From: Calditrichia bacterium
Lineage (GTDB): Bacteria > Calditrichota > Calditrichia > RBG-13-44-9 > J075
Assembly: GCA_020635015.1 (NCBI GenBank)
Contig: JACKAP010000006.1
Location: 76,998 to 140,997, forward strand
Direction: 5' to 3'
DNA length: 64,000 nucleotides
The notes below the pieces were generated by a model. It did no database searches, was not told the DNA's origin, and was given only the letters and a program-made list of their open reading frames with translations. The translations under genes and the position numbers were made by a program. This document shows, in pieces, positions 12,589 through 45,527 of this stretch. The first letter of the stretch is position 1, and every line of letters begins with the position of its first letter.

Positions 12589-14190
12589 TTAATTTCCATC
12601 CTTCTTCTTCAGTCCGCTAAAATCAATCATACTTTCCGGGTCCAGTGCTTTGTCATTGTGACGTAATTCGAAGTGCAGGTGCGGGGCGGTCGATAATCCG
12701 GAGTCACCGACCAGGCCGATCAATGTGCCGGCATCAACCTGCTGGCCGTAGCTGACCAGGATGGTGTCCATTTGGCTGTAGAGTGTGGTATAATCATCTC
12801 CATGGCGGAGGATGACGGTATTCCCATAATTCTCCCTAAACTTGCTGAGAATTACCGTGCCGGCGGCTGCGGCGTAAATTTCACTGCCCCGGGGGGCGGC
12901 GACATCGATCCCCCTGTGCAGCATCTTGACTTTCTTGACGGGGTGAATCCGATTGCCATAGCCCGAGCTGACATAGCCGGTTTTTATCGGGCAGTCGAAT
13001 GCCGGACCGGCCATTGCCGGCGGATTTTCCGCTACGGGGCGGTCATCTGCCAACGATTGGTAAGAAGCCATCGGTAGTAAAAACAGGCCGATGAGCATGA
13101 GAACGGCGATGCGAACCAGCGGGTGATGCTTTTTCATAAAACTTCCTCCTTTGATATCGTGAATACGTTGTACCAGAAATTGATGATCGTTGCTAAAACC
13201 GGCATAGAGTTTCCAAGGTTCGGTTCCGCTTTGGTTTAGCCTGAGAACGGCCAGCATGCTTTCGCCATATTCGCGGGGAGAAATTTGCCGCCGGGCCAGC
13301 ACCATCCGGTCACAGATCCGTTCCCGGGCCTGGTTGAGCCGGCGGTTGGCGTACCACACCACTGGATGAAAGAAGTAGATCGCCTGCAGTAATATCTGCA
13401 GCCGGATCCACAGATCGTCATAGCGCCGTATATGGGCCATCTCATGAGCGATGATCGCCTCCAGCAGCCGGGGAGTGTGGAGCGCTGCGACCTTCTGGGG
13501 CAAAAAAATCACCGGGCGAAATATGCCGATGGTAAATGGCGTGGTGCAGTCGTCGGCGCTGCAGAGACGTACCGGCCGGGTGATGCGGAAGGCTTGCCGC
13601 CAATGGGCTGCAGTTTCCAGAATGGCCGGATCGGTAATCGCGCGGGCGCGGGCCGTCAATCGGCGGTAGCGCCGCCGTCGCTGCAGGAATAACCCGCCCA
13701 AACCGGCCGCTCCGCCCAACCAGGCCAATAGCAGCAGCATCTGCTGCACGGCAGGGTCCTCAGCCGGGGCGGCAACACCCTCCAACGTCTGATGCTCGCC
13801 CGGGAGATAGCTGTGCGCGCCGATACCCTCGTCAGTCAATCCGTTGGCGCCATCGCTCCCGCTGCTAAAGATCAGCCCTGATATCACCTCCCATGACGCC
13901 TGAAAGGGCGGCCAGGGGGCCAGCAGATTCCGGGCGCTGAGCGGGGAGGCCCATGAAGGAGGCACGACCAGGCGCAGCAGCAGCAGGGTGCACAAGCCGA
14001 GTTGAAGGTACGCGGAGCGCTTGCCGAACAGACGGAGGAGAATCCAGATTGGAATAAATAAGACGATACTGTAGAGCAGTTCTGCCTGAAGAAATGCAAT
14101 CATATAGGCGCCTGCCTGTGCGGTCTGGTTGAGAAGGTCAACGCTCATTTTAGCCCTCATTTTGATCTTCAGTGGATTGATCATCTTCAT
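12589..14190 (-). CDS. BlaR1-like M56 peptidase sensor fused to a C-terminal M23 peptidase domain
   Basis: M56 zinc motif IIAHEMAHIRRYDD. Canonical M23 motifs LHRGIDVAAPRGSEIY and GDSGLSTAPHLHFELRH. The start may be 14148 (MSVDLL), abutting the blaI-like stop. Confidence 0.8.
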   Translation of the reverse strand: MKMINPLKIKMRAKMSVDLLNQTAQAGAYMIAFLQAELLYSIVLFIPIWILLRLFGKRSAYLQLGLCTLLLLRLVVPPSWASPLSARNLLAPWPPFQASWEVISGLIFSSGSDGANGLTDEGIGAHSYLPGEHQTLEGVAAPAEDPAVQQMLLLLAWLGGAAGLGGLFLQRRRRYRRLTARARAITDPAILETAAHWRQAFRITRPVRLCSADDCTTPFTIGIFRPVIFLPQKVAALHTPRLLEAIIAHEMAHIRRYDDLWIRLQILLQAIYFFHPVVWYANRRLNQARERICDRMVLARRQISPREYGESMLAVLRLNQSGTEPWKLYAGFSNDHQFLVQRIHDIKGGSFMKKHHPLVRIAVLMLIGLFLLPMASYQSLADDRPVAENPPAMAGPAFDCPIKTGYVSSGYGNRIHPVKKVKMLHRGIDVAAPRGSEIYAAAAGTVILSKFRENYGNTVILRHGDDYTTLYSQMDTILVSYGQQVDAGTLIGLVGDSGLSTAPHLHFELRHNDKALDPESMIDFSGLKKKDGN

Positions 14191-34999: not shown

Positions 35000-36214
35000 T
35001 TAATTCTGAACGTTTAACAACAGCAACTGAGAGATACTGCTATTGCCGGCCGCATCGTAAGCCCGGGCCAGCAGACTGTGCAGACCGTTGGGCACGGTGC
35101 CGGTATCCCAGTTCCAGGTAAAGGGCGCGGTATTTTCTGTGCCGGCCAGGAGCCCGTCGACAAAATATTCTACCTGGACCACCTCCTCATTGTCGCTGGC
35201 CTGGACCAGGACTGCGATGGTGCCCGATACATCGGAGAGGTTGATCGGCGCTGTAATGACCACCACCGGCGCAATCTCGTCCCCGGTTTCCGAATATACG
35301 CTAATTAGCTGGGAATAGCCAATATTTCCCTGGGCGTCGCGGGCGGTGGCGTAAATGGAATAGCTTTCTCCGCCGGCCGGCGACCAGCTCGCTTCATAGG
35401 GGGGCGTTGCGACCGAGGTCAGGGAATCGCCGTCGATGTAGAAGGTCACCGCTTCTACCGCCACATTATCCGATGCCTCGGCGCGGATGGTCACCGCTTC
35501 TCCGACAAGACTGTACGCGGCTGGGTGGGTGAGAAAGACGATTGGCGCGGTCATATCCGCCGATTCCGGATAGACCGTCACCAACTGGGAGTAGCCGATA
35601 TTGCCCTGGCGGTCACGGGCGGTGGCGTAGATAGAATAACTCGCTCCGCCGGACGGTGACCAGGTGACTTCGTAGGGGGGGGCGCTTGCCGACGCCAGAG
35701 AATCGCCGTCGATGTAAAAGGTTATTGTTTCCACCGCGATATTATCCATCGCCTCAGCACGGATGATGACCTCCTCTCCGACGATGCTGTAGGCGGCAGG
35801 CTGGGTGATAAATAGGACCGGCGCCTGCAGATCCGGGACGGTGTAGACCGTCACCAGTTGTGAAATACCCAGATTGCCGGACCCGTCGCGCGCTTTGGCC
35901 AGCAAGGTGTGGCTGGTTTCCGGACCGTCGAAAATGATCTGGAACTCGAAAGGAAGCTGGTTGTCGCCTGCCAGGGAATCGCCGTCGATCAGGATGTAGA
36001 CCTCGCGAATCTCACCGCTGTCCTGGGCATCCACCTTGACATCTACCGTGTCGCCGGTATAAGCATACTGGGCCGGTGCCGTGATGGTAACCACCGGCGC
36101 GTAGATATCCTCCGGCGTCGGCGCGACCGTTTCCACCGGATCGGCTTCGTTGCATGCGGTGAAAAAGAGCAGACTGAACAGCAAAATAGAAATCGGTTTT
36201 ACTATTTTCATCAT
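35000..36214 (-). CDS. lipoprotein with four tandem Ig-like domains
   Basis: Lipobox LLFFTAC. Four ~95-aa repeats (…ITFYIDGDSLASASAPPYEVTWSP…ATARDRQGNIGYSQLVTVY…), the middle two near-identical. Confidence 0.6.
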   Translation of the reverse strand: MMKIVKPISILLFSLLFFTACNEADPVETVAPTPEDIYAPVVTITAPAQYAYTGDTVDVKVDAQDSGEIREVYILIDGDSLAGDNQLPFEFQIIFDGPETSHTLLAKARDGSGNLGISQLVTVYTVPDLQAPVLFITQPAAYSIVGEEVIIRAEAMDNIAVETITFYIDGDSLASASAPPYEVTWSPSGGASYSIYATARDRQGNIGYSQLVTVYPESADMTAPIVFLTHPAAYSLVGEAVTIRAEASDNVAVEAVTFYIDGDSLTSVATPPYEASWSPAGGESYSIYATARDAQGNIGYSQLISVYSETGDEIAPVVVITAPINLSDVSGTIAVLVQASDNEEVVQVEYFVDGLLAGTENTAPFTWNWDTGTVPNGLHSLLARAYDAAGNSSISQLLLLNVQN

Positions 36215-36234
36215 CCCAAACTCCTGCTTTTTTT

Positions 36235-36472
36235 GTCCACGGATTACACGGATGAGACAGATGTTATGCACTCACGGCTGAAAACATGATTTATGCTGTC
36301 ATTGCGAGGCGTTTTTTCCGAAGCAATCTCCCGCAAGGTGCAACCATCTGCAGTTAAATTGTAAGCGATCCGCATGAGATTGCCGCGCCGCACGCTACGC
36401 GGCTCGCAATGACAGCACCCGATGACGACCTGAGTTTCATTTAATCCGTGAAAATCCGTGTAATCCGTGGAC
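36235..36472. repeat. 238-bp nested inverted-repeat element
   Basis: Perfect 19-bp outer arms gtccacggattacacggat / atccgtgtaatccgtggac. Perfect 14-bp inner arms gctgtcattgcgag / ctcgcaatgacagc. 8-bp innermost pair gcaatctc / gagattgc. Confidence 0.85.
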
Positions 36473-36526: not shown

Positions 36527-37903
36527 TCAGCCCTTCGCGCTTCGCCCTTTGCCATCTTTTTCCAGCCAGGGCGGCAGCGCTTCCAACTGCTGCACGTATT
36601 CGGTGTTTTCCGCCTGGCGGATGACGGCAATGCTTTTATCCTCACCGATCATCACCACATTGGGACGGAGGTGGATGAACTGCATCCATTGGGTGTTGTT
36701 GTAGGCCCCGACCGGAGAGATCACCACCTGGTCGCCTTTCTCCAGGTAGGGCATCTGGATGGTGTTGCAGATCTCATCGATCTGCATGCACAGCGGTCCG
36801 TAGATGTGATGAGCCTCCTGATTCAACTGGGCTTTATTCTCCGCCGGCAGGATGGTATGGTCGTACCAAAAGGAGGTGAACAGCAGATTGACCCCGGCGT
36901 CCAACACCAGCATGCGCATGCCGCTGTTCATGCGCTTGGTGGCGACCACCTGGGCGATCAGGAAGGCCGACTCATCCACCAGCCCCCGCCCGGTCTCCAG
37001 GAAGAGGGTGGGCAACTGCGCTGCCGGGAAGGCGTTGAGCAGCTCCGCGGTGATCGCCTCGGCATACTGGTCGAAGGAGGGGATGGTCTGGTAGGCCGCC
37101 GGGTAGATCGACGCCTTGAGCTTGTTGTGCGAGGCGAAGCCGCCTCCGATATCGATATAGCGGATCTTGATGCTCTCTGCCTGCTGGATCTGCTGAACAA
37201 AGCCGATCAGCTTGCGCACCTGTTCGCGGTAAACCTCGGCGTTGAGCACAAAGGTGCCGATATGGGAATGGATCCCCACCAGGCGCAGCCACTTGCTGGC
37301 GGCGATCCTCCGTGCCGCCTCGAAGGCCTGCCCGCTCTCCATGTTGAGGCCAAATCGATCCCACGACTGCAAAGTAGAGAGGTTCATATTGACCCGCATG
37401 CCGATCTCGACTTCCCGGCCGAGGTCCTCGGCAATCTGTTCGATCTCGTAAATTTCATCGAAGCTGTCGATGTTGATCATCGCTCCATCCTGAACCGCGA
37501 TTTGCAGTCCGCGAGGCGACTTGTACGGTCCGTTGAAGATGATCCGGTTGCCGGGATTGCCCATCTTGCGGGCCAGTTCATATTCCCATTCCGAGACCAC
37601 CTCCGCCCAGGCGCCGAGCTGGTGATAGCTCCGGCATACCGCCTGCAGATAGTTGGTCTTGTAGCTCCAGGCGAAATGTACTTTGGGATATCGTTTAGAG
37701 AAAGCCCGGTAGGCATTCTGGAAGATCTCCTTCAGCCGCGGGTAGGAATAGACAAAGAGCGGGGAGCCGTAGGCGGCGGTCAACTCGCTGACCGGGATGC
37801 CTTCGATATTGTCCTGAAAGCCGCTGGTCTGCGGTGTGCCGAATTTGCTGGTAATGCCCATTTGCCGCCGCGATATCGCCGGTTTTTGATAGGTCTTTTT
37901 CAT
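36527..37903 (-). CDS. PLP-dependent decarboxylase, Orn/DAP/Arg decarboxylase family (fold type III)
   Basis: PLP-lysine context HFAWSYKTNY. IDIGGGFAS, FLETGRGLV and GPLCMQIDE motifs. 458 aa. Confidence 0.85.
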   Translation of the reverse strand: MKKTYQKPAISRRQMGITSKFGTPQTSGFQDNIEGIPVSELTAAYGSPLFVYSYPRLKEIFQNAYRAFSKRYPKVHFAWSYKTNYLQAVCRSYHQLGAWAEVVSEWEYELARKMGNPGNRIIFNGPYKSPRGLQIAVQDGAMINIDSFDEIYEIEQIAEDLGREVEIGMRVNMNLSTLQSWDRFGLNMESGQAFEAARRIAASKWLRLVGIHSHIGTFVLNAEVYREQVRKLIGFVQQIQQAESIKIRYIDIGGGFASHNKLKASIYPAAYQTIPSFDQYAEAITAELLNAFPAAQLPTLFLETGRGLVDESAFLIAQVVATKRMNSGMRMLVLDAGVNLLFTSFWYDHTILPAENKAQLNQEAHHIYGPLCMQIDEICNTIQMPYLEKGDQVVISPVGAYNNTQWMQFIHLRPNVVMIGEDKSIAVIRQAENTEYVQQLEALPPWLEKDGKGRSAKG

Positions 37904-38994
37904 GATGTCGGTCCTTCATCGGTTGAATGTTGCACAGGATTCGTCTCCGGATAATGGATCTCACCCCGGGAGAGCAGGCTGTCCAGCTGGCTGATTTCGC
38001 CAATCAGATCGATGGTGTAATGGGTGAAGAGTTTGCCCACCTGGTAATCGTTGACCGGTTCCAATTTCCGCCCCCGGGCCAGATCAACGTAATGGGCGGG
38101 CAGGTTGATCTCTGCCGCCACTCCGAGGTAGATCCAGGCGGGAAAGCGCGGGTTGATCTCCAGGATATAGAGTTTCTGGTCGCGCCGGGCCAGCAGGGTC
38201 TCCATCTCCAGCGCGCCCCGCCAGCGAGTGGCGCTAATGAAGCGGCGGGTGAGGTCGAGTAGCTGCTCGTTGCGGATACTCACCCCCGCCCAGCCCTTGC
38301 CCTTGTCGGTGAGCAGGATCTTCTTCATGCACAGGGCGGACACAATGCCGCCGTCGCCCCCGCCCAGCGCCGCTGCATTGAATTCCTCGCCCTGGATATA
38401 TTCCTGCACCAGCAGCGGGTAGCCCCACTTGTTGGCCAGCAGGCGGGCGTAAGAGAGCGCCTGAGGCTGGTCGTGGCAAATGTAAGCGTCGTAATAGATC
38501 CCTTTGACCAGCAGCGGGAAGCCGACCTCCCGCAGCGCTGCCTCCAGATCGGCCAGATGGTGCACCGTCACAGTGCGTGGTACCGCAAAATCAAATTTAC
38601 GGCCCAGTTCCGCCAGGTTGGCTTTGGAGCGGGCCTCGATCTGCGCAGTGGTGGGGATGAACATCCGGGTCCCGCTCTCCCGCAATTCAGCTTCCAGCCC
38701 GGCAAAGTGGGCGATCTCCGAATCCAGGGTGGGGATGATGATGTCGATGGGCGTTCTCTGCCGGATCTCATCCAGGCGCTGCTGCAGCGCCTCCCGCCCT
38801 TCCCGGGGGTAGGGCAGCAGATAGCCGGCACGGAACAGCTCGCGGTCGAACAGCCCGGGATCGATGGCGTCATAGCCGAGGGCGATCAGGCGATAATCCT
38901 GCCCGCCCTGGGCCATCAGACTGCGCGCCACCGCCACACCCGGACCGGGACTCTCCACGGCGTTGACCCCGGTAATGGCTATGGTCAGACTCAT
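37900..38994 (-). CDS. ATP-grasp domain ligase
   Basis: FPLLVKG, PLLVQEYIQGEEF and LYILEINPRFPAW motifs. 4-nt overlaps with both neighbouring genes. Confidence 0.8.
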   Translation of the reverse strand: MSLTIAITGVNAVESPGPGVAVARSLMAQGGQDYRLIALGYDAIDPGLFDRELFRAGYLLPYPREGREALQQRLDEIRQRTPIDIIIPTLDSEIAHFAGLEAELRESGTRMFIPTTAQIEARSKANLAELGRKFDFAVPRTVTVHHLADLEAALREVGFPLLVKGIYYDAYICHDQPQALSYARLLANKWGYPLLVQEYIQGEEFNAAALGGGDGGIVSALCMKKILLTDKGKGWAGVSIRNEQLLDLTRRFISATRWRGALEMETLLARRDQKLYILEINPRFPAWIYLGVAAEINLPAHYVDLARGRKLEPVNDYQVGKLFTHYTIDLIGEISQLDSLLSRGEIHYPETNPVQHSTDEGPTS

Positions 38995-39269
38995 ATGCTG
39001 TTCTCCTGTGTGTCAAAACTGACCAGGCCGAGGTTGATCAGCATTGGGATGAATTCGCGGATATCCTTGTCGAGTACCCGTTCGTCCACTTCGTAAACTT
39101 CCAGCAGGCGGGTTTTGATCGCCTCGGTATCGGTGATGCCTTCTTTGAGGCACTGGATGATGTCTCGGGCAACCTCATTGGTGCTGAGGATTTCCCCGGT
39201 GCCGGGATCGAATACGAACCCGGTATCGCTGATGATGAATTGCTGTAATCTTTCCACATTGTAGCGCAT
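38991..39269 (-). CDS. PqqD family-like small protein (peptide chaperone / RRE-like)
   Basis: 92 aa. FVFDPGTGEILSTNEVARDIIQCLKEGITDTEAIKTRLLEVYEVD...DIREFIPMLINLGLV has the PqqD-family pattern. Confidence 0.65.
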   Translation of the reverse strand: MRYNVERLQQFIISDTGFVFDPGTGEILSTNEVARDIIQCLKEGITDTEAIKTRLLEVYEVDERVLDKDIREFIPMLINLGLVSFDTQENSI

Positions 39270-39287: not shown

Positions 39288-39719
39288 TTAGGGGGATACC
39301 AGGTAAGCCCAGATATAGGCGGTCATGCCGTCGAGCTTATAGCCGAGTTTATTGCATACCGCGTCGTCTTCGGCACAGTCTTTTTTTTCCAGCTTGCGCA
39401 GCCAAACCGCGGCCTCGAAGGTGCCGTTGAGGTATTCCGGATCGACCACGATCTCCTTCACCGTCACCCCCTGTTTGATCGAAAAAGAGAGATGCTTGCC
39501 CTCTTCCAGGGTATTGGTCACATTGGGCGGGTAAAGCGAGACCCCCAGCCACATGTCCTTGCCGCTGACGTGGGCAGTGAGGGTTAGTTTGAGGGTGTTG
39601 CCGCCGTTTTTGGTGATCTCGTAGGAGAACCCGATCTGGTCGGTCTGGGCGGCCGCCCCATTTCCAAAGGCGCTGATTAACGCCAGCAGGATGATAAAAA
39701 TTAATGTGTTACGCTTCAT
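39288..39719 (-). CDS. small secreted protein, unknown function
   Basis: 143 aa. Signal peptide MKRNTLIFIILLALISAFGNGAAAQ. Two Cys near the C-terminus. Operon position supports that it is coding. Confidence 0.6.
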   Translation of the reverse strand: MKRNTLIFIILLALISAFGNGAAAQTDQIGFSYEITKNGGNTLKLTLTAHVSGKDMWLGVSLYPPNVTNTLEEGKHLSFSIKQGVTVKEIVVDPEYLNGTFEAAVWLRKLEKKDCAEDDAVCNKLGYKLDGMTAYIWAYLVSP

Positions 39720-39731
39720 AGTGATGACTCC

Positions 39732-40604
39732 TTAGAATTTATAGAACAAACCAAATGTATAGTACACAGCACTGAACTGAAATCCCTGGTCGTCATAGCG
39801 CTCATATTGGACATCCGCATAAGGCTTGAGGTGCTTGCCGAGCTGGTAGTAGGCGGTGAGCCCCAGGTTGGTGGTCAGCATCACGTCGGTGGTGTAGAGC
39901 ACCAGCGTCGAGGGGTTATAAGAAAGTACCTGTTCCCCGAAAATTCCGTAAGCAGTAAGGGTGAGTTTGCGGGGCACGGGGTACCAGGTTAGCTCCGGAT
40001 GCACGCTCCAGCCCCATTTGATATTCTGCACCGGCTGTTCATAAAACGAAAAATGCCCGGAAGCCTGCGCCCAGACATAATAGTTGAACAGGGCCATGCC
40101 CCAGGTGGCGGAGACTTCGGCTTTATCGGCCAGGTCGTTAGGAAAATAGTGCAGATTAAGATCCGCATAATAGCGCCCCGCCGGAGAAAACCAGGAAAGG
40201 GAGAGGTAGCCGGGAAAGGTCTGATCGACCGCCGGAAAAGGCGCCCACAGCGCGCTGCCCTCCAGGGCCAGGGTAAAGCTGCCGCGATGGCGAGTATAGA
40301 AGGTGCGGGCCAGGCTGACCCGCAGGTGGTCGCTGCGGGCCGGCTCGCCGTCGGTTTTGTCGACCGTGATGTCGGTATGGCGCCAGCCCAAGGCCAGCCA
40401 CCAGGTCTTGGCTCGATTGTTATAATAGATGTCGCCCCTTCCGGAGCGAAATACGTCGACCAGGCTGTTTTCGTAGATTCCGTAGACGCCTTTCGCCGCG
40501 ACCGTGAGCGAGGACTGGGCAGATGCCTTGCCGCTCAGGAACAGCGCCAGGCAGATCAGTTGTAAAACCGTAAATTGCAGTAAGCGGGTCGATAAGCGTT
40601 TCAA
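39732..40604 (-). CDS. predicted outer-membrane beta-barrel protein
   Basis: Signal peptide ending ASAQ. Alternating aromatic/polar strands. C-terminal ...YYTFGLFYKF, the terminal-Phe OMP signature. Confidence 0.6.
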   Translation of the reverse strand: MKRLSTRLLQFTVLQLICLALFLSGKASAQSSLTVAAKGVYGIYENSLVDVFRSGRGDIYYNNRAKTWWLALGWRHTDITVDKTDGEPARSDHLRVSLARTFYTRHRGSFTLALEGSALWAPFPAVDQTFPGYLSLSWFSPAGRYYADLNLHYFPNDLADKAEVSATWGMALFNYYVWAQASGHFSFYEQPVQNIKWGWSVHPELTWYPVPRKLTLTAYGIFGEQVLSYNPSTLVLYTTDVMLTTNLGLTAYYQLGKHLKPYADVQYERYDDQGFQFSAVYYTFGLFYKF

Positions 40605-40611
40605 ACCGTAT

Positions 40612-42765
40612 TCACTCCCCGGGTGTCTGTTCGTAATACTCTATTTTATCTAACTTTAATTCGACGCCATTCTCCTGGAGATAATTGAATCCTTCCCCTT
40701 TGCGGAACACCAGTTGGCGGGTGCCAGCCTTGCGCTTGAACGTAAAATGCCATCTGATAAATCCGCCTCGGATCTGCTGGGCCTGCTTGAGCAGAATGGT
40801 TTCGTCGGGCAGTTTTTCCAGGGAATTGTCGATCTCCAGGAAGCAGCGCAGGCCGAAAATGGTAAACAGGTCCAGGAAGTGCACCAGGTAACGGGGCAGG
40901 GTGTAATCCAGGGAGGTCTGGCTGGTCCAATGAAGTTTGCCCGGCGCTTCCGGAAACACCACATCGGTGAGGGTCTGGGCCAGCAGAAACAGGGCGCTGT
41001 TGCGCTTTCCCTGATACTTTTTCAGCGAGAGCACTCCTTCAGACAGGTCGAAATAGAGCCGGTCGCCGTCCTGGTTTTCCAGGCAGAGATTGTTGTAAAA
41101 ATCATTGTGCAGATGCCAGGATTCCTCAGAGCTCAACTTGCCGCTGTTCAGGATCAACTGCCATTTTTTGTAAATTTCATCGAAGAAATATTTGCTGTAG
41201 TCGGCATCATAGCGCAGGTTCTCCACCCGGTCATCTTTGTTGAGGATGCCCTTGGGAAGCAGGCGGTCGGCGGCGTTATCCTGTTTGATCAGCAGATTGG
41301 AAAATTCAAAATAAAGTGCCGGGGCGCCGATGTAATCCTGAGCCTGAAACTGCAGGTGGATATGCGGGTAGGGAGAACGGCCGGAATTGCCGCAGTGCCC
41401 GATTTTATCACCTTTACTGACGGTATCCCCTGCTTTGACGCTGATCGAATCCTTCTGCAGGTGAGCGATGCAGCTGTAGAAATAGGGGGCATGCTCGATG
41501 ATCACGCAGTTGCCCCAGTTGTCGCGGGGATTGGCCTGCCCGGGGCGGTTGTCATAGATGTCATTTTTGACCCGAACGACCGTGCCGTCGGCCGGGGCGA
41601 GCACCAGGGCGTTGTAGCAATAGTAATCGCTCAGCTTCTCCCCGCTGCCGCTGTAAATGCTGCCGCCGGTGTCGCGGATCATGAAGTCGATCCCATAAGC
41701 CCATTCGTCTTTATGGGTATATTCGCCTTTGAATGCCTGGCTCACCACCCAGTCGCTGTAAAAGGGCAGGGAGATCGCCACCCCGTAGCGCCGCCACATC
41801 TTCAGGTTTTCCCGGTAGCTGCTCAGGTTCTCCTCAGGTGATAGCGGGTGGGAACTCAATTCCAGCCCCAGCGAGGGATGGAGGCGCATCTTTAAGGCAA
41901 ATACCACCAGTAGCACCGAGAGGTTGAAAGACAGCGCAAGAGAAGAGAGATAAAACGGCATGGCGATCTCCAGCGCGATCAGGTTCATGTAAACGATAAA
42001 GATGCCGAAGATCGCCAGCAGGAGGCTGGATAGATTCGGGATCAGGAACACCCCGCCCAGCGCCAGGGCGGTGAGCATATAGTTGAAGCCAAGATATTGG
42101 CTGTGAATGAACGCTTCGCTCACCCCGAAAAATTCGTGGATGTAATACCCGCCCAGCCAGCCGATCCCGATCAGCAACAGCGAGAGGCGGGAATAAATCA
42201 GCAGCCCGGCGGCGATCAGGATGCCTGAGATCGGGTTGATGGTGAAAAAGATCGCCCCGAGGTTCTTGAAAAACAGGTTGAGGCTAAGGGGCAAGGCATG
42301 CAGGGAGACGTCAAACACCTGCCAGCGCACCTCCGAAGGGGTCAGGTAGCCGCTGCCAAAGCTGGCGATGATGGCGGTGTAGATGATCAGATTGAAGGGG
42401 AGGCTCATGTAGGGCAGCCCGTAGGCGCTCAAGAAGGTTTTGATCCACATGGTGAAGACGGTCATCAGGATCACCGCAATGATGACCAGGATGACCAGGT
42501 GGAGGGAGACATCGTAATAAAGGCTCAGGCCTAACGCCACCAGAATACCGTTGAAGCCCCATAAGCCTTGCCGTATCTCCTGGCGGCTGAATCCCAGCAG
42601 GTAGGCGACCAGGTTGGCAATCAGCGCCCCTCCCAGGCCGAAGATGCCGTGGGAGGGAATGACCAGGGTTGCCAGCAGGATAATCAATCCCAATGCCTGA
42701 TGTTGTGAAAAGAATATGAGCGAATAGCTTTTTAAGGTACTCTCTGTCCAGAATTTCGCATTCAT
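40612..42765 (-). CDS. fusion protein: urea-transporter (UT)-like polytopic membrane domain + M23/LytM domain + unknown C-terminal domain
   Basis: The N-terminal ~310 aa carry UT-family motifs (IFFSQHQALGL, QGLWGFNGILVALGL). The M23 region has GNSGRSPYPHIHLQF. The last ~220 aa have no motif I recognise. Confidence 0.8.
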   Translation of the reverse strand: MNAKFWTESTLKSYSLIFFSQHQALGLIILLATLVIPSHGIFGLGGALIANLVAYLLGFSRQEIRQGLWGFNGILVALGLSLYYDVSLHLVILVIIAVILMTVFTMWIKTFLSAYGLPYMSLPFNLIIYTAIIASFGSGYLTPSEVRWQVFDVSLHALPLSLNLFFKNLGAIFFTINPISGILIAAGLLIYSRLSLLLIGIGWLGGYYIHEFFGVSEAFIHSQYLGFNYMLTALALGGVFLIPNLSSLLLAIFGIFIVYMNLIALEIAMPFYLSSLALSFNLSVLLVVFALKMRLHPSLGLELSSHPLSPEENLSSYRENLKMWRRYGVAISLPFYSDWVVSQAFKGEYTHKDEWAYGIDFMIRDTGGSIYSGSGEKLSDYYCYNALVLAPADGTVVRVKNDIYDNRPGQANPRDNWGNCVIIEHAPYFYSCIAHLQKDSISVKAGDTVSKGDKIGHCGNSGRSPYPHIHLQFQAQDYIGAPALYFEFSNLLIKQDNAADRLLPKGILNKDDRVENLRYDADYSKYFFDEIYKKWQLILNSGKLSSEESWHLHNDFYNNLCLENQDGDRLYFDLSEGVLSLKKYQGKRNSALFLLAQTLTDVVFPEAPGKLHWTSQTSLDYTLPRYLVHFLDLFTIFGLRCFLEIDNSLEKLPDETILLKQAQQIRGGFIRWHFTFKRKAGTRQLVFRKGEGFNYLQENGVELKLDKIEYYEQTPGE

Positions 42766-42965: not shown

Positions 42966-43369
42966 GTTGATGGGTTAATGGGGAAAAGGATAAAGGATAA
43001 AGGATAAAGGATAAAGGATAAAGGTTGAAGATACTGGATACTGGATACTGGATAAAATAAAAATGCTTGTTCAGGTGTGAAAATCGGGTTCATTTAAGCA
43101 TCCAGCATCCAGCATCCAGCATCCAGCATCCAGCATCCAGCATCCAGCATCCAGCATCCAGCATCCAGCATCCAACATCCAACATCCAGCATCCAACATA
43201 TACTCATCAGACAAAGCCATCCGCAAAAACTTGCAAATTTCCTATTGACCTGACCCGATCCCTTCAACATATTTCCGCCGCAATGAAAAATCAACCCATC
43301 AACCCATCAACCCATCAACCCATCAACCCATCAACCGATCAACCCATTAACCCATCAACCCATCAACCC
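42966..43369. repeat. composite simple-repeat element (left copy): (GGATAAA)n-(GGATACT)n-unique core-(GCATCCA)n-spacer-(CAACCCAT)n
   Basis: Read directly. It ends exactly at the ATG (43370) of the S9 peptidase gene. Inverted partner at 45296-45527. Confidence 0.9.
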
Positions 43370-45295
43370 ATGAAAACATTACCCTATGGCACCTGGCCAT
43401 CACCGATTACCGCCGATCTCATCGCTGCCGCCGGGCGGCGGCTGGGCGATATCGCCGTCGATGGAGATTCGGTTTACTGGATCGAAAGTCGCCCGGAGCA
43501 GGAGGGGCGCAATACCATCATGATGTGGAACCCCGGCGGGGAGTTTCGGGAAGTTACCCCGCCGCCTTTTAATGTGCGCTCCCGGGCCCATGAATACGGC
43601 GGCGGCGCTATGGCGGTGTATGGCGGCCGGGTGTTCTTTGTGAACGATGCAGATCGCCAGATCTATCACATTCCTCCCGGCGGATCCCCGCAGGCGCTGA
43701 CCAGCGAATCCGATACCGCCTATGCCGATATGATCCTCGATCCGGCGCGCCAGCGGCTGATCCTGGTGCAGGAGCATTATTTTGATGACAGCCGCCCGCC
43801 CCGCGACATGCTGGCCGTGCTTTCCCTGCGCGGCCGCCCGGGATATTGTGAGCCGCTGGTGAGCGGGAACGATTTCTATGCCAGTCCCGCCCTGAGCCGC
43901 GACGGCCGGCAGCTTTGCTGGCTGAGCTGGGACCATCCGGCAATGCCCTGGAACGGTACTGAATTATGGGTGGCGGAGGTAGGGGATGACGGTCAACTGC
44001 GCCGCCGGCGCCGGATTGCCGGAGGCGCGCAGGAGTCGGTGTTCCAGCCGCAATGGGGTACAGACGGCACCCTGTATTTTGCTTCCGACCGCAGGGAGGG
44101 CTGGTGGAACCTCCATGCCTGGGATGGGCACACCATCCGGCCGGTGCTGGAGATGGCTGCGGAGTTCGCCTTGCCCCAGTGGGTTTTCGGAATGTCGACC
44201 TATTGTATTTTGAATGAGCGTTGTATCGCCGCTGCGTACACCCGGGAGGGGCGCTGGGAGATGGGGCTGATCGATCCGCAGCGCGGTGATCTGGAGGCCC
44301 TGGCGCTGCCCTTTAGCTATATTACCCAGGTTCGCGGCGCCGGGGAGCGGATCGCTTTTGTCGGCGCTGCGCCGGATGCAGCGGAGGCGGTTTATACCCT
44401 GGAACTGCCGTCGCAGCACCTGCAGATGTTGCGGAAATCCAGCGATCTGGAGGTGGATGCCGGCTATATTTCCACCCCGCAGGCAGTGAGTTTTGAAAGT
44501 GATGGCGAGGAGGTGCACGGCTTTTTCTATCCTCCCAGCAATCGCGATTTCAGCGCTCCGGAGGACGAAAAACCTCCGCTGATCGTATTCATTCACGGCG
44601 GTCCCACGGCGGCGGCGAACAGCGGATTGGATCTTCGCAAACAATTTTGGACCAGCCGCGGCTTTGCGGTGCTCGACGTCAACTACCGGGGCAGCACCGG
44701 CTATGGGCGGGCGTACCGGGAAAGCCTCAACGGCCGTTGGGGGGTGGCCGATGTGCAGGATTGCGTCAACGGCGCCCGGCGTCTGGCGGCGCAGCAGCAG
44801 GCGGATCCGGAAAGGCTGCTGATCCGCGGCGGCAGCGCCGGGGGATTCACCGCCCTGGCGGCGCTGACTTTTCACGATTGTTTCCGGGCCGGGGCGAGCT
44901 ATTATGGCATCAGCGATCTGGAAGCGCTGGAGCAGGAGACCCACAAGTTTGAATCGCGCTACAATCATCAATTGATCGCCCCCTATCCCGCCGGTAAGCC
45001 AGTCTACCGCGAACGCTCGCCGCTGCACCATGCCGGGGATCTGAACCGCCCGGTGATCTTCCTGCAGGGCCTGGAGGATCGGGTGGTGCCCCCCGGTCAG
45101 GCGGAAAGAATGGCCCACGCCCTGCGTAAACGCGGCGTGCCGGTGGCTTATCTTACCTTTGAGGGCGAAGGGCACGGCTTCCGCAAGCCGGAAACCATCC
45201 GCCGCGCCCTGGAAGCGGAGTTGTTCTTTTATGGAAGGGTGCTGGGATTCGAGCCCGGGGAGAAGCTTGATCCGGTGCAGATAGATAATTTGTGA
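43370..45295 (+). CDS. S9 family serine peptidase (prolyl oligopeptidase / acylaminoacyl-peptidase type)
   Basis: Beta-propeller N-terminal half. Catalytic nucleophile motif IRGGSAGGFTALAAL and C-terminal ...EGEGHGF. The ORF part upstream of 43370 is translated repeat DNA. Confidence 0.88.
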   Translation: MKTLPYGTWPSPITADLIAAAGRRLGDIAVDGDSVYWIESRPEQEGRNTIMMWNPGGEFREVTPPPFNVRSRAHEYGGGAMAVYGGRVFFVNDADRQIYHIPPGGSPQALTSESDTAYADMILDPARQRLILVQEHYFDDSRPPRDMLAVLSLRGRPGYCEPLVSGNDFYASPALSRDGRQLCWLSWDHPAMPWNGTELWVAEVGDDGQLRRRRRIAGGAQESVFQPQWGTDGTLYFASDRREGWWNLHAWDGHTIRPVLEMAAEFALPQWVFGMSTYCILNERCIAAAYTREGRWEMGLIDPQRGDLEALALPFSYITQVRGAGERIAFVGAAPDAAEAVYTLELPSQHLQMLRKSSDLEVDAGYISTPQAVSFESDGEEVHGFFYPPSNRDFSAPEDEKPPLIVFIHGGPTAAANSGLDLRKQFWTSRGFAVLDVNYRGSTGYGRAYRESLNGRWGVADVQDCVNGARRLAAQQQADPERLLIRGGSAGGFTALAALTFHDCFRAGASYYGISDLEALEQETHKFESRYNHQLIAPYPAGKPVYRERSPLHHAGDLNRPVIFLQGLEDRVVPPGQAERMAHALRKRGVPVAYLTFEGEGHGFRKPETIRRALEAELFFYGRVLGFEPGEKLDPVQIDNL

Positions 45296-45527
45296 GTGGA
45301 TGGGTGGATGGGTTGATGAGTGGATGGGTGGATGGGTTAATGGGTTGAGATGCTGGATGCTGGATGCTGGATGCTGGATGCTGGATGCTGAAATGAACCC
45401 GATTTTCGCACCCGAACAAGCATTTTTATTTTACCCAGTATCCAGCACCTTCAACCTTTATCCTTTATCCTTTATCCTTTACCCTTTATCCTTTATCCTT
45501 TATCCTTTTCCCCATTCACCCATCAAC
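45296..45527. repeat. composite simple-repeat element (right, inverted copy)
   Basis: Starts 1 nt after the S9 peptidase stop. It is the reverse complement of the left element, including the unique core (4 substitutions in ~56 nt by my count). Confidence 0.9.

What the first reader, a model, noticed from the sequence alone, without database searches (positions are those of the whole stretch)
40612..42765. Urea-transporter-like channel domain covalently fused to a possibly degenerate LytM/M23 domain
Seen in sequence: the N-terminal ~310 aa look like a UT (SLC14-type) channel; by eye I count about 10-11 hydrophobic segments. The M23 region keeps the HxH motif (PHIHLQF). Where the first zinc-ligand motif HxxxD is expected, the sequence reads WAYGIDF, so the His position appears to be Ala in my by-eye alignment. 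The M23 domain of the BlaR1-like protein in the same window is canonical (LHRGIDV ... PHLHFE), which serves as an internal control. Established knowledge: LytM domains lacking zinc ligands (the EnvC/NlpD type) act as regulators or binding modules rather than hydrolases. Inference: the fusion may tether a peptidoglycan- or peptide-binding module to a small-solute channel. Which side of the membrane it faces depends on whether the TM count is odd or even.
Basis: partly seen in the sequence, partly recalled or inferred. Interest (0 to 1): 0.6.

Follow-up and report, generated by a model that had tools for sequence, protein, structure and literature searches.

The report
Cytoplasmic M23 peptidase fused to channel
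This gene encodes a membrane channel of the urea-transporter type fused to a probably active metal-dependent peptidase and a third barrel-shaped domain, both facing the cell interior. It always sits in a conserved operon, not described in the papers I could search, that probably makes a small compound and lets it out of the cell.

Summary

- **M23 activity.** The canonical HxxxD histidine position is never His in 121 relatives. However, D360, H435, H468 and H470 are invariant, and so is H351, at a fixed gap-free distance upstream of the Asp. Active M23A enzymes also use a distant His. The domain is therefore probably catalytic, not EnvC/NlpD-like.
- **Topology.** No transmembrane segment follows the UT fold, and the positive-inside bias is strong in all 121 sequences. 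M23 and the barrel are therefore cytoplasmic and do not face the cell wall.
- **UT pore.** It lacks part of the urea-recognition motif.
- **Genomic context.** The fusion occurs in at least 594 species, almost always in the operon PqqD, ATP-grasp, FslC/DAP-type decarboxylase, UT-M23, outer-membrane barrel, periplasmic accessory protein.

My best reading is a make, cleave and release module that spans the envelope. Its product is unknown. The architecture is already catalogued; I found no paper on the operon or the cytoplasmic M23.

The parts
40612..42765 (-). Whole gene: a 717-aa protein with three domains, UT channel, M23 peptidase and a C-terminal beta-barrel
   Evidence: ORF. Pfam UT and M23. 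AF2 model has pLDDT 94.4 and pTM 0.89. The identical protein occurs on two ENA metagenome contigs with the same neighbours.
41866..42765 (-). UT-fold membrane domain (residues 1-300): helices Pa, 1a-5a, Pb, 1b-5b. The selectivity filter is altered: L16, S121, A171 and A277 stand where canonical UTs have Q, T, Q/E and T.
41776..41865 (-). Cytoplasmic linker with helix 310-323 (residues 301-330), equivalent to the UT C1 helix; contains invariant P310
   Evidence: AF2 secondary structure; invariant columns; UT C1 helix described in PMC11589576.
41335..41775 (-). Variant M23 metallopeptidase domain (residues 331-477). Invariant residues are H351 (41713-41715), D360 (41686-41688), H435 (41461-41463), H468 (41362-41364) and H470 (41356-41358). 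An extra stretch of roughly 15-20 residues lies between D360 and the PVLAPADG strand.
40615..41334 (-). C-terminal beta-barrel domain (residues 478-717) wrapped around helices. No Pfam family matches it. Few residues are conserved: W550, D555, G586, L592.
39732..40604 (-). 290-aa protein with a signal peptide, ending ...GLFYKF: probably a small outer-membrane beta-barrel. It is a conserved partner in the Calditrichota/Nitrospirota/Deltaproteobacteria subfamily.
   Evidence: ORF. Homologues of 285-288 aa sit in the same operon in L003, L087, L088 and L089. The L003 homologue weakly hits an OmpG-type porin family, E=0.0038. The barrel assignment is an inference.
39288..39719 (-). 143-aa secreted protein of unknown fold. 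It sits immediately upstream of PqqD in this subfamily.
   Evidence: ORF. Homologues of 136-143 aa occupy the same position in L003, L087, L088 and L089. No Pfam hit.
38991..39269 (-). PqqD-family small protein (92 aa), of the peptide-chaperone/RRE type. Its stop overlaps the ATP-grasp start.
   Evidence: Pfam PqqD E=1.2e-11. Weak NCBIfam matches to lasso-peptide and HPr-rel-A PqqD chaperones. Present upstream in 67 of 86 loci; most of the others lack the flank. Alignment.
37900..38994 (-). ATP-grasp ligase (364 aa) of the carbamoyl-phosphate-synthase-like / PurD / biotin-carboxylase branch
   Evidence: Pfam ATPgrasp_Ter and ATP-grasp_3. NCBIfam PRK12767-type hits below cut-off. The profile's best PDB matches are the CPS large chain (4.7e-15), 2pn1, PurD and biotin carboxylases. 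Found in 76 of 86 loci.
36527..37903 (-). Fold-type III PLP decarboxylase (458 aa), closest to N-citrylornithine decarboxylase FslC and to diaminopimelate decarboxylases
   Evidence: Pfam Orn_Arg_deC_N and Orn_DAP_Arg_deC. NCBIfam FslC 9.1e-67 and lysA 3.1e-66, both below cut-off. PDB hits: 7kh2 FslC 3.1e-55, DAP decarboxylases, BtrK 7ru7/2j66 about 1e-25. Found in 81 of 86 loci.

Best explanation
**Shown.** The gene encodes the inner-membrane subunit of a conserved six-gene module that spans the cell envelope. Its N-terminal 300 residues form a UT-fold channel. The periplasmic half of that channel has lost the polar urea-recognition residues. Its C-terminal 420 residues hang into the cytoplasm and comprise a variant M23 domain plus a beta-barrel domain. 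The partners are a PqqD-like adaptor, an ATP-grasp ligase, an FslC/DAP-type PLP decarboxylase, a dedicated outer-membrane barrel and a periplasmic accessory protein.

**Inferred from conservation.** The M23 domain is an active zinc peptidase or amidase. It would use H351, D360 and H470 as metal ligands and H435 and H468 as catalytic histidines. This H-x8-D arrangement is comparable to the distant His of M23A enzymes.

**Inferred mechanism.**
1. The ATP-grasp enzyme joins an amino acid through its side chain to a carboxylate or amine of a substrate, possibly a peptide held by PqqD.
2. The decarboxylase removes the free alpha-carboxylate of the attached residue, as FslC and BtrK do on conjugated amino acids.
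3. The M23 domain, held at the cytoplasmic mouth of the pore, cuts the amide bond and frees a small, probably uncharged amide or amine product.
4. The product leaves passively through the UT-type pore and then through the dedicated outer-membrane barrel.

The product is not identified and is probably not urea.
For: **Architecture and fold.**

**Cytoplasmic location.** UT termini are intracellular (PMC11589576). The positive-inside bias is 9.9 against 2.3 K+R, in 121 of 121 sequences, and there is no transmembrane segment after residue 292.

**Catalytic set.**
- T350, H351, D360, H435, H468 and H470 are invariant in 121 sequences, and the H351-D360 spacing is gap-free.
- M23A beta-lytic protease uses His22/Asp36/His82/His121/His123 (PMC8715609).

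**Altered pore.**
- Q(Pb) is Ala in 89 of 121 sequences.
- T(5b) is S61/A41/V18.
- T(5a) is Ser in 119 of 121.
- Q(Pa) is Leu in the window.
- Alanine mutations at these motif positions reduce urea flux in canonical UTs.
- The urea-transporter equivalog TIGR03441 scores 109 against a cut-off of 274.6.
- No urease or urea-carboxylase genes appear among the conserved neighbours.

**Operon.**
- In genome-contig loci with at least 5.3 kb upstream, ATP-grasp and decarboxylase are always found upstream on the same strand by tblastn. PqqD is found in all but one.
- Downstream, a TPR/barrel protein and/or a TPR protein is present in 66 of 67 loci, and both are present in 61 of 67.
- A second operon layout, with a 286-aa barrel and a 140-aa secreted protein, occurs in Nitrospirota, Deltaproteobacteria and the window.

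**Spread.** At least 594 species genomes, at least 729 clusters at 90% identity, and 492 clusters at 50% identity with E<=1e-30.

**Decarboxylase relatives.** The closest solved relatives act on side-chain-conjugated amino acids: FslC 3.1e-55 and BtrK about 1e-25.
Against: - I could not obtain model coordinates, so it is not shown that H351 lies within ligand distance of D360 and H470.
- hhalign against LasA aligned only the C-terminal core.
- The canonical His position is mostly Arg or Lys, which could instead fill the metal site.
- No conserved small ORF that could encode a PqqD-bound precursor or scaffold peptide was found within 2 kb of the operon in about 80 loci.
- The PqqD C-termini are not conserved, so a LysW-type carrier role is not supported.
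- The ATP-grasp enzyme groups with CPS, PurD and biotin carboxylases rather than with classical peptide ligases.
- The direction of flux is not determined.
- A channel gives no energy coupling.
- In L069 and L086, no PqqD, ATP-grasp or decarboxylase match was found beside the UT-M23 gene.
- No experimental literature on the operon was found.
Confidence: 0.42

Rival explanations
1. The M23 domain is a degenerate, non-catalytic LytM module of the EnvC/NlpD type. It binds peptidoglycan or a peptide in the envelope and is tethered to a small-solute channel.
Against: D360, H435, H468 and H470 plus H351 are invariant, unlike EnvC/NlpD-type degenerate LytM domains, which lack zinc ligands. The domain is predicted to be cytoplasmic. 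No amidase partner appears among the conserved neighbours.
Confidence: 0.08
2. The protein is an ordinary urea (or ammonia/amide) uptake channel. The cytoplasmic M23 and barrel domains act only as a regulatory gate or ligand sensor, as proposed for ankyrin and EF-hand fusions to UT domains.
Against: The urea recognition motif on the periplasmic side is lost. The protein scores far below the urea-transporter equivalog cut-off. No urea-metabolism genes are linked to it, whereas biosynthetic enzymes and an outer-membrane barrel are linked in nearly every locus. A pure gate does not explain invariant catalytic residues.
Confidence: 0.12
3. A machine for maturing and exporting a ribosomal peptide, analogous to peptidase-containing ABC exporters. 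PqqD binds the leader of a precursor peptide. The ATP-grasp and decarboxylase modify the peptide. The M23 domain removes the leader. The modified peptide itself is then exported through the membrane domain and the TPR/barrel outer-membrane protein.
For: The nearest NCBIfam models to this PqqD protein are peptide chaperones of peptide-maturation systems, but all score below their cut-offs. A peptidase sits on the cytoplasmic face of a membrane protein. The outer-membrane TPR-barrel partner is conserved.
Against: No conserved precursor ORF was found in or near about 80 operons. The UT pore is a narrow slot for urea-sized molecules and the fold is unchanged (rmsd 1.9 A), so an ordinary peptide should not pass. 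DAP-type PLP decarboxylases need a free alpha-amino acid moiety (established enzymology, my own knowledge).
Confidence: 0.13
4. An uptake and salvage module running inward. A small amide or short peptide-like solute enters through the dedicated outer-membrane barrel and the UT-type pore. The M23 domain hydrolyses it at the cytoplasmic mouth, and the ATP-grasp and decarboxylase trap or convert the products.
For: Channels work down a gradient, and metabolic trapping is a common uptake strategy (my own knowledge). The operon has a dedicated small barrel plus a periplasmic accessory protein. Canonical UTs are mostly used for uptake in bacteria (my own knowledge).
Against: ATP-grasp ligases and FslC/BtrK-like decarboxylases are typically biosynthetic (plus my own knowledge). 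A PqqD adaptor has no obvious role in catabolism. No catabolic genes are conserved nearby.
Confidence: 0.1

Closest known systems
Canonical urea channels of the UT/SLC14 family (dvUT of Desulfovibrio vulgaris, Yut, mammalian UT-A/UT-B)
   Different: A 420-residue cytoplasmic extension is added. The polar Q-T-T-Q ladder becomes Q(variable)-S-S/A/V-A; in the window it is L-S-A-A. The protein scores below the urea-transporter equivalog cut-off. It is not linked to urea metabolism genes.
M23B peptidoglycan endopeptidases (LytM, lysostaphin, MepM, ShyA, Csd3)
   Different: The His of HxxxD is replaced by Arg, Lys or Ala, and an invariant His lies 9 residues upstream of the Asp. There is an extra stretch of roughly 15-20 residues after the Asp. 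The predicted location is cytoplasmic, not extracytoplasmic, so mature peptidoglycan cannot be the substrate.
M23A peptidases (LasA, beta-lytic protease, pseudoalterin)
   Same: The first zinc His lies well upstream of the Asp rather than in HxxxD: His22...Asp36 in beta-lytic protease. The five-residue catalytic set maps one to one. Pseudoalterin aligns structurally over 133 residues.
   Different: The spacing is 9 residues rather than 13 or 14. Detectable sequence similarity is restricted to the C-terminal core. M23A enzymes are secreted pro-enzymes, not cytoplasmic domains of membrane proteins.
Degenerate LytM factors (EnvC, NlpD, DipM, SpoIIQ)
   Same: M23 fold with a non-canonical first motif; high structural similarity.
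   Different: Here four canonical positions and an extra His are invariant, and the domain is cytoplasmic.
ATP-grasp plus PLP-decarboxylase pairs acting on conjugated amino acids (BtrJ/BtrK in butirosin); FslC in rhizoferrin biosynthesis
   Same: The operon's decarboxylase is most similar to FslC (3.1e-55) and also matches BtrK (about 1e-25). From my own knowledge: the BtrJ/BtrK pathway pairs an ATP-grasp ligase with such a decarboxylase, and a small partner protein is present.
   Different: The partner here is a PqqD-fold protein, not an acyl carrier protein. The substrates are unknown. No such pathway is known to be coupled to a UT-M23 protein or a dedicated outer-membrane barrel.
Peptidase-containing exporters (C39 peptidase-ABC transporters). 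This is an analogy only, from my own knowledge.
   Same: A cytoplasmic peptidase domain is fused to the membrane protein through which the product leaves.
   Different: The fold is different, there is no ATPase, and the conduit is a narrow passive channel. No precursor gene was found.

Membership tests
Urea transporter family (Pfam UT / SLC14 fold) | Matches the UT profile above the curated cut-off over its full length | tested here: met
   177.9 bits against a cut-off of 25, profile positions 2-291 of 292.
Urea transporter family (Pfam UT / SLC14 fold) | Ten transmembrane helices in two inverted halves plus pore helices Pa and Pb | tested here: met
Functional urea channel (equivalog level) | Reaches the NCBIfam urea-transporter equivalog score (TIGR03441) | tested here: not met
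   109.4 bits against a cut-off of 274.6.
Functional urea channel (equivalog level) | Urea recognition motif Q-V-Y-T (cytoplasmic side) and Q-V/I-F/Y-T (outer side), as defined in PMC11589576 | tested here: not met
   The window has L16, S121, A171 and A277. In the family, Q(Pb) is Ala in 89 of 121, T(5b) is S61/A41/V18, and T(5a) is Ser in 119 of 121. The V/I and aromatic positions are kept.
Functional urea channel (equivalog level) | Conducts urea | not testable with these tools
   Needs flux assays.
Peptidase family M23 | Matches the M23 profile above the cut-off and has the M23 fold | tested here: met
Peptidase family M23 | HxH motif and the catalytic His of the 'xHL' strand | tested here: met
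   H468, H470 and H435 are invariant in 121 of 121 sequences and align to the corresponding residues of solved enzymes.
Peptidase family M23 | HxxxD motif supplying two zinc ligands | tested here: inconclusive
   Asp360 is invariant. The position four residues before it is never His (R77/K28/A9/Q5). An invariant His351 lies 9 residues before the Asp with no gaps in any sequence. M23A enzymes set a precedent for a distant His. The geometry could not be measured because no coordinates were available.
Peptidase family M23 | Extracytoplasmic location with peptidoglycan or secreted-protein substrates (typical, not strictly defining) | tested here: not met
   Predicted to be cytoplasmic from UT topology, the positive-inside bias in 121 of 121 sequences, and the absence of a further transmembrane segment.
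Degenerate LytM regulators (EnvC/NlpD type) | Loss of the zinc-binding and catalytic residues | tested here: not met
   Four of the five canonical positions are invariant, and an extra invariant His is present.
Degenerate LytM regulators (EnvC/NlpD type) | Periplasmic location together with an amidase or divisome partner | tested here: not met
   Cytoplasmic prediction. No amidase or FtsEX genes are among the conserved neighbours.
RiPP-type pathway with a PqqD recognition element | A precursor peptide gene next to the PqqD/modifying-enzyme genes | tested here: not met
   No conserved ORF of 10-90 aa was found upstream of PqqD or within 2 kb of the operon in about 80 loci. A precursor encoded elsewhere is not excluded.
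RiPP-type pathway with a PqqD recognition element | A PqqD-family protein present and coupled to a modifying enzyme | tested here: met
   Pfam PqqD E=1.2e-11. The gene directly precedes the ATP-grasp gene and overlaps it in the window.

The most novel reading that the evidence does not exclude
FCB-group bacteria and a few other phyla may carry a previously unrecognised pathway that spans the envelope. In it, a UT-fold pore has been repurposed as the exit for a product that is not urea. A PqqD/ATP-grasp/PLP-decarboxylase trio would assemble and tailor that product on a peptide or carrier. A zinc peptidase of a cell-wall-hydrolase family, relocated to the cytoplasm and docked on the pore, would then release it. 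This would be a passive 'cleave-and-release' channel, with a dedicated outer-membrane barrel completing the route.
Probability: 0.25. Interest if true: 0.8.

Novelty: new variant of a known kind. Interest (0 to 1): 0.6.

Why it matters
M23/LytM domains are treated as markers of cell-wall remodelling outside the cytoplasmic membrane, and UT domains as markers of urea transport. Here both labels are probably misleading. Hundreds of genomes annotate this protein as 'urea transporter' or 'peptidoglycan DD-metalloendopeptidase'. The evidence instead points to a cytoplasmic peptidase joined to a channel with a changed selectivity filter, inside a tightly conserved six-gene operon whose product is unknown. 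If the proposed mechanism holds, it would add a new way of coupling an enzyme to a passive channel. It would also point to an undiscovered metabolite or peptide made by many Bacteroidota, Ignavibacteriota and relatives. The H-x8-D arrangement would also widen the definition of an active M23 site.

Tried and rejected
- **Active-site geometry.** The structure tool returns no coordinates and /data holds none, so I could not measure the geometry around H351.
- **Alignment of the H351 region.**
  - The profile search of PDB also aligned only profile positions of about 50-155.
- **Precursor peptide.** Two scans found no conserved small ORF: 10-80 aa within 500 nt upstream of PqqD, and 15-90 aa on both strands within 2 kb of the operon.
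- **LysW-like carrier.** PqqD C-termini are often acidic but not conserved, so I rejected this idea.
- **Outer-membrane partners.** An HMM of the Bacteroidota TPR-barrel protein does not detect the window's 290-aa protein, so the two outer-membrane partners are not demonstrably homologous. No homologue of the TPR or TPR-barrel proteins occurs elsewhere in the window.
- **Foldseek against afdb50.** This search for the C-terminal domain was unavailable.
- **Literature.**
  - Three searches found no functional study of the fusion or the operon.
  - One 2026 survey lists the architecture.
- **Eleventh transmembrane segment or inverted topology.** I considered both and rejected them.
- **Promoter and terminator scans.** Matches were at chance level and were not used.
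Full report
**What is there**

The ORF at 40612-42765 on the minus strand encodes 717 residues.
- Pfam places a complete urea-transporter (UT) domain at residues 8-291 (E=3.4e-52) and a Peptidase_M23 domain at 385-475 (E=4.5e-16). The M23 match covers only profile positions 13-89.
- A canonical M23 domain in the same window, in the BlaR1/M56 protein at 12589-14190 (-), matches the profile end to end at 113.7 bits. It carries LHRGIDV...PHLHFE.

**Structure**

An AlphaFold2 model built on 121 relatives is very confident (pLDDT 94.4, pTM 0.89).

**Is the M23 domain degenerate?**

In 121 relatives sharing 30-40% identity with the window protein:
- The position four residues before the zinc-binding Asp is never His (R77/K28/A9/Q5).
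- D360, H435, H468 and H470 are invariant, that is, the Asp, the catalytic His and both His of HxH. T350-H351 is also invariant. The distance from H351 to D360 is 9 residues without a single gap in any sequence.
Here the conservation is what an enzyme shows.
- Active M23A enzymes do not use HxxxD either. Beta-lytic protease has His22, Asp36, His82, His121 and His123 (PMC8715609). That set maps one to one onto H351, D360, H435, H468 and H470.

I therefore consider the domain probably active, at about 65-70%. I could not measure the geometry because no coordinates are exposed. Profile alignments did not reach the H351 region. The Arg or Lys at the canonical position in 87% of sequences remains unexplained.

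**Which side of the membrane?**

- Cryo-EM work states that both termini of UT subunits face the cytoplasm. It defines the helix order as Pa, 1a-5a, a long outer loop, Pb, 1b-5b (PMC11589576).
- Mapping the model's helices onto that order, the loops expected inside carry 9.9 +/- 1.9 Lys+Arg and those expected outside carry 2.3 +/- 1.1. Inside exceeds outside in 121 of 121 sequences.
- The most hydrophobic 19-residue window after residue 292 scores only 1.58.

There is thus no eleventh transmembrane segment. The M23 and barrel domains are predicted to lie in the cytoplasm, and a peptidoglycan-facing role is not supported.

**Is it a urea channel?**

The fold and the GFN and LPxx[S/T]xPF motifs are kept. 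The polar Q(Pb)-T(5b)-T(5a)-Q(Pa) ladder that recognises urea is not.

| Motif position | Family (121 sequences) | Window |
|---|---|---|
| Q(Pb) | Ala in 89 | A171 |
| T(5b) | S61 / A41 / V18 | A277 |
| T(5a) | Ser in 119 | S121 |
| Q(Pa) | Gln in 79 | L16 |

Alanine substitutions at motif positions lower urea flux in canonical UTs. The urea-transporter equivalog model scores 109 bits against a cut-off of 274.6. None of the conserved neighbours is a urea-metabolism gene. I conclude that it is a UT-fold pore with altered selectivity, probably not for urea.

**Distribution and neighbours**

- The fusion is common. At least 729 clusters at 90% identity match, and the top 120 all carry both domains at about 700-740 aa.
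- 492 clusters at 50% identity match the M23-barrel part at E<=1e-30, nearly always at residues of about 330-700 of a protein of about 720 aa.
- Carriers are mostly Bacteroidota, with Ignavibacteriota, Chlorobiota, Calditrichota, Nitrospirota, Nitrospinota, Fibrobacterota, Bradymonadales and Deltaproteobacteria.
- A 2026 survey already lists UT+M23 as a bacterial architecture, without any functional analysis (PMC12998343).

I found no paper that describes the context.
- In the loci with enough flanking DNA, the genes upstream on the same strand are a PqqD-family protein, an ATP-grasp ligase and a fold-type III PLP decarboxylase.
- Downstream lie a secreted protein with TPR-like repeats fused to a beta-barrel ending in an aromatic residue, and a secreted TPR protein. 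At least one is present in 66 of 67 loci and both in 61 of 67.
- In Ignavibacteria the TPR and barrel parts are separate genes.
- In the window and in Nitrospirota and Deltaproteobacteria relatives, the envelope partners are instead a signal-peptide protein of about 286 aa, probably a small barrel, and a secreted protein of about 140 aa. The gene order is permuted.

**What the enzymes suggest**

- The decarboxylase is closest to N-citrylornithine decarboxylase FslC (3.1e-55), then to diaminopimelate decarboxylases and BtrK. These enzymes decarboxylate an amino acid whose far end is conjugated to something else.
- The ATP-grasp enzyme belongs to the carbamoyl-phosphate-synthase-like, PurD and biotin-carboxylase branch.
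- The nearest NCBIfam models to this PqqD protein are peptide chaperones, but all score below their cut-offs. No conserved precursor ORF was found, and the PqqD tails are not conserved.

**Most likely mechanism (inference)**

1. The three soluble proteins build and decarboxylate an amide-linked intermediate.
2. The cytoplasmic M23 domain, held at the pore, cleaves it.
3. The small product diffuses out through the UT-type pore and the dedicated outer-membrane barrel.

The rival readings are listed separately with their evidence: a degenerate regulator, an ordinary gated urea channel, a peptide exporter analogous to peptidase-ABC transporters, and inward salvage.

**Verdict**

- The interpretation as a degenerate, envelope-facing LytM module is not supported.
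- The fusion itself is catalogued.
- I found no description of its cytoplasmic orientation, the H-x8-D site, the altered pore or the conserved six-gene operon in the papers I could search.
- These points define a testable system of unknown function.

Noticed in passing
window 42985-43371 and 45293-45508: The S9 (prolyl-oligopeptidase family) gene, divergent from the operon, is bracketed by mirror-image arrays of three different short tandem repeats. Upstream: (AAAGGAT)x10, (AGCATCC)x15, (ATCAACCC)x10. Downstream: a GTGGATGG-like array x6, then (GATGCTG)x6 and (CCTTTAT)x8, which are the reverse complements of two of the upstream units, in inverted order. The mechanical ORF 43067-45295 reads through the upstream arrays, so the true start is probably near MKTLPYGTWPSPI.
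   Followed up: partly
window 12589-14190 (-): A 533-aa BlaR1/M56 sensor-peptidase domain fused to a fully canonical M23 domain (Pfam M56 4.7e-34, M23 4.7e-33). This is a second M23 fusion to a membrane protein in the same window.
   Followed up: partly
family alignment A2, window residue 357: The residue three positions before the zinc Asp is His in 45 of 121 relatives (F48/H45/Y20). The canonical position four before the Asp is Arg or Lys in 105 of 121. The role of these residues near the metal site is unexplained.
   Followed up: no
L028:9006-9923 and L068:8995-9903: In two Bacteroidota loci, a gene of about 300 aa from the IF-2B family (Pfam IF-2B 2.8e-28) is inserted between the decarboxylase and the UT-M23 gene. 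This family includes sugar-phosphate isomerases (my own knowledge).
   Followed up: partly
L026:8517-9701: Two nearly identical copies of a 140-146-aa ORF, which by eye resemble an IS200/REP-type transposase, lie between the decarboxylase and the UT-M23 gene and interrupt the operon. The transposase identity was not checked with a profile.
   Followed up: no
L062:10735-11529 and 15 other Bacteroidota loci: A protein of about 264 aa with a type IX secretion C-terminal sorting domain (Por_Secre_tail 3.5e-10) accompanies the operon in 16 loci. It lies either after the TPR gene or between the ATP-grasp and decarboxylase genes.
   Followed up: partly
L069 and L086: In these two loci no PqqD, ATP-grasp or decarboxylase match was found by tblastn. 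L069 has only about 1.9 kb of upstream flank and still carries both the TPR-barrel and the TPR genes downstream. L086 has neither downstream.
   Followed up: no
window 35000-36271 (-): Directly downstream of the operon lies a secreted protein with four Big_7 bacterial Ig-like repeats (Pfam 1.7e-56). It is present on both metagenome contigs that carry the identical operon, but not in the Nitrospirota, Ignavibacteriota or Bacteroidota loci searched.
   Followed up: no
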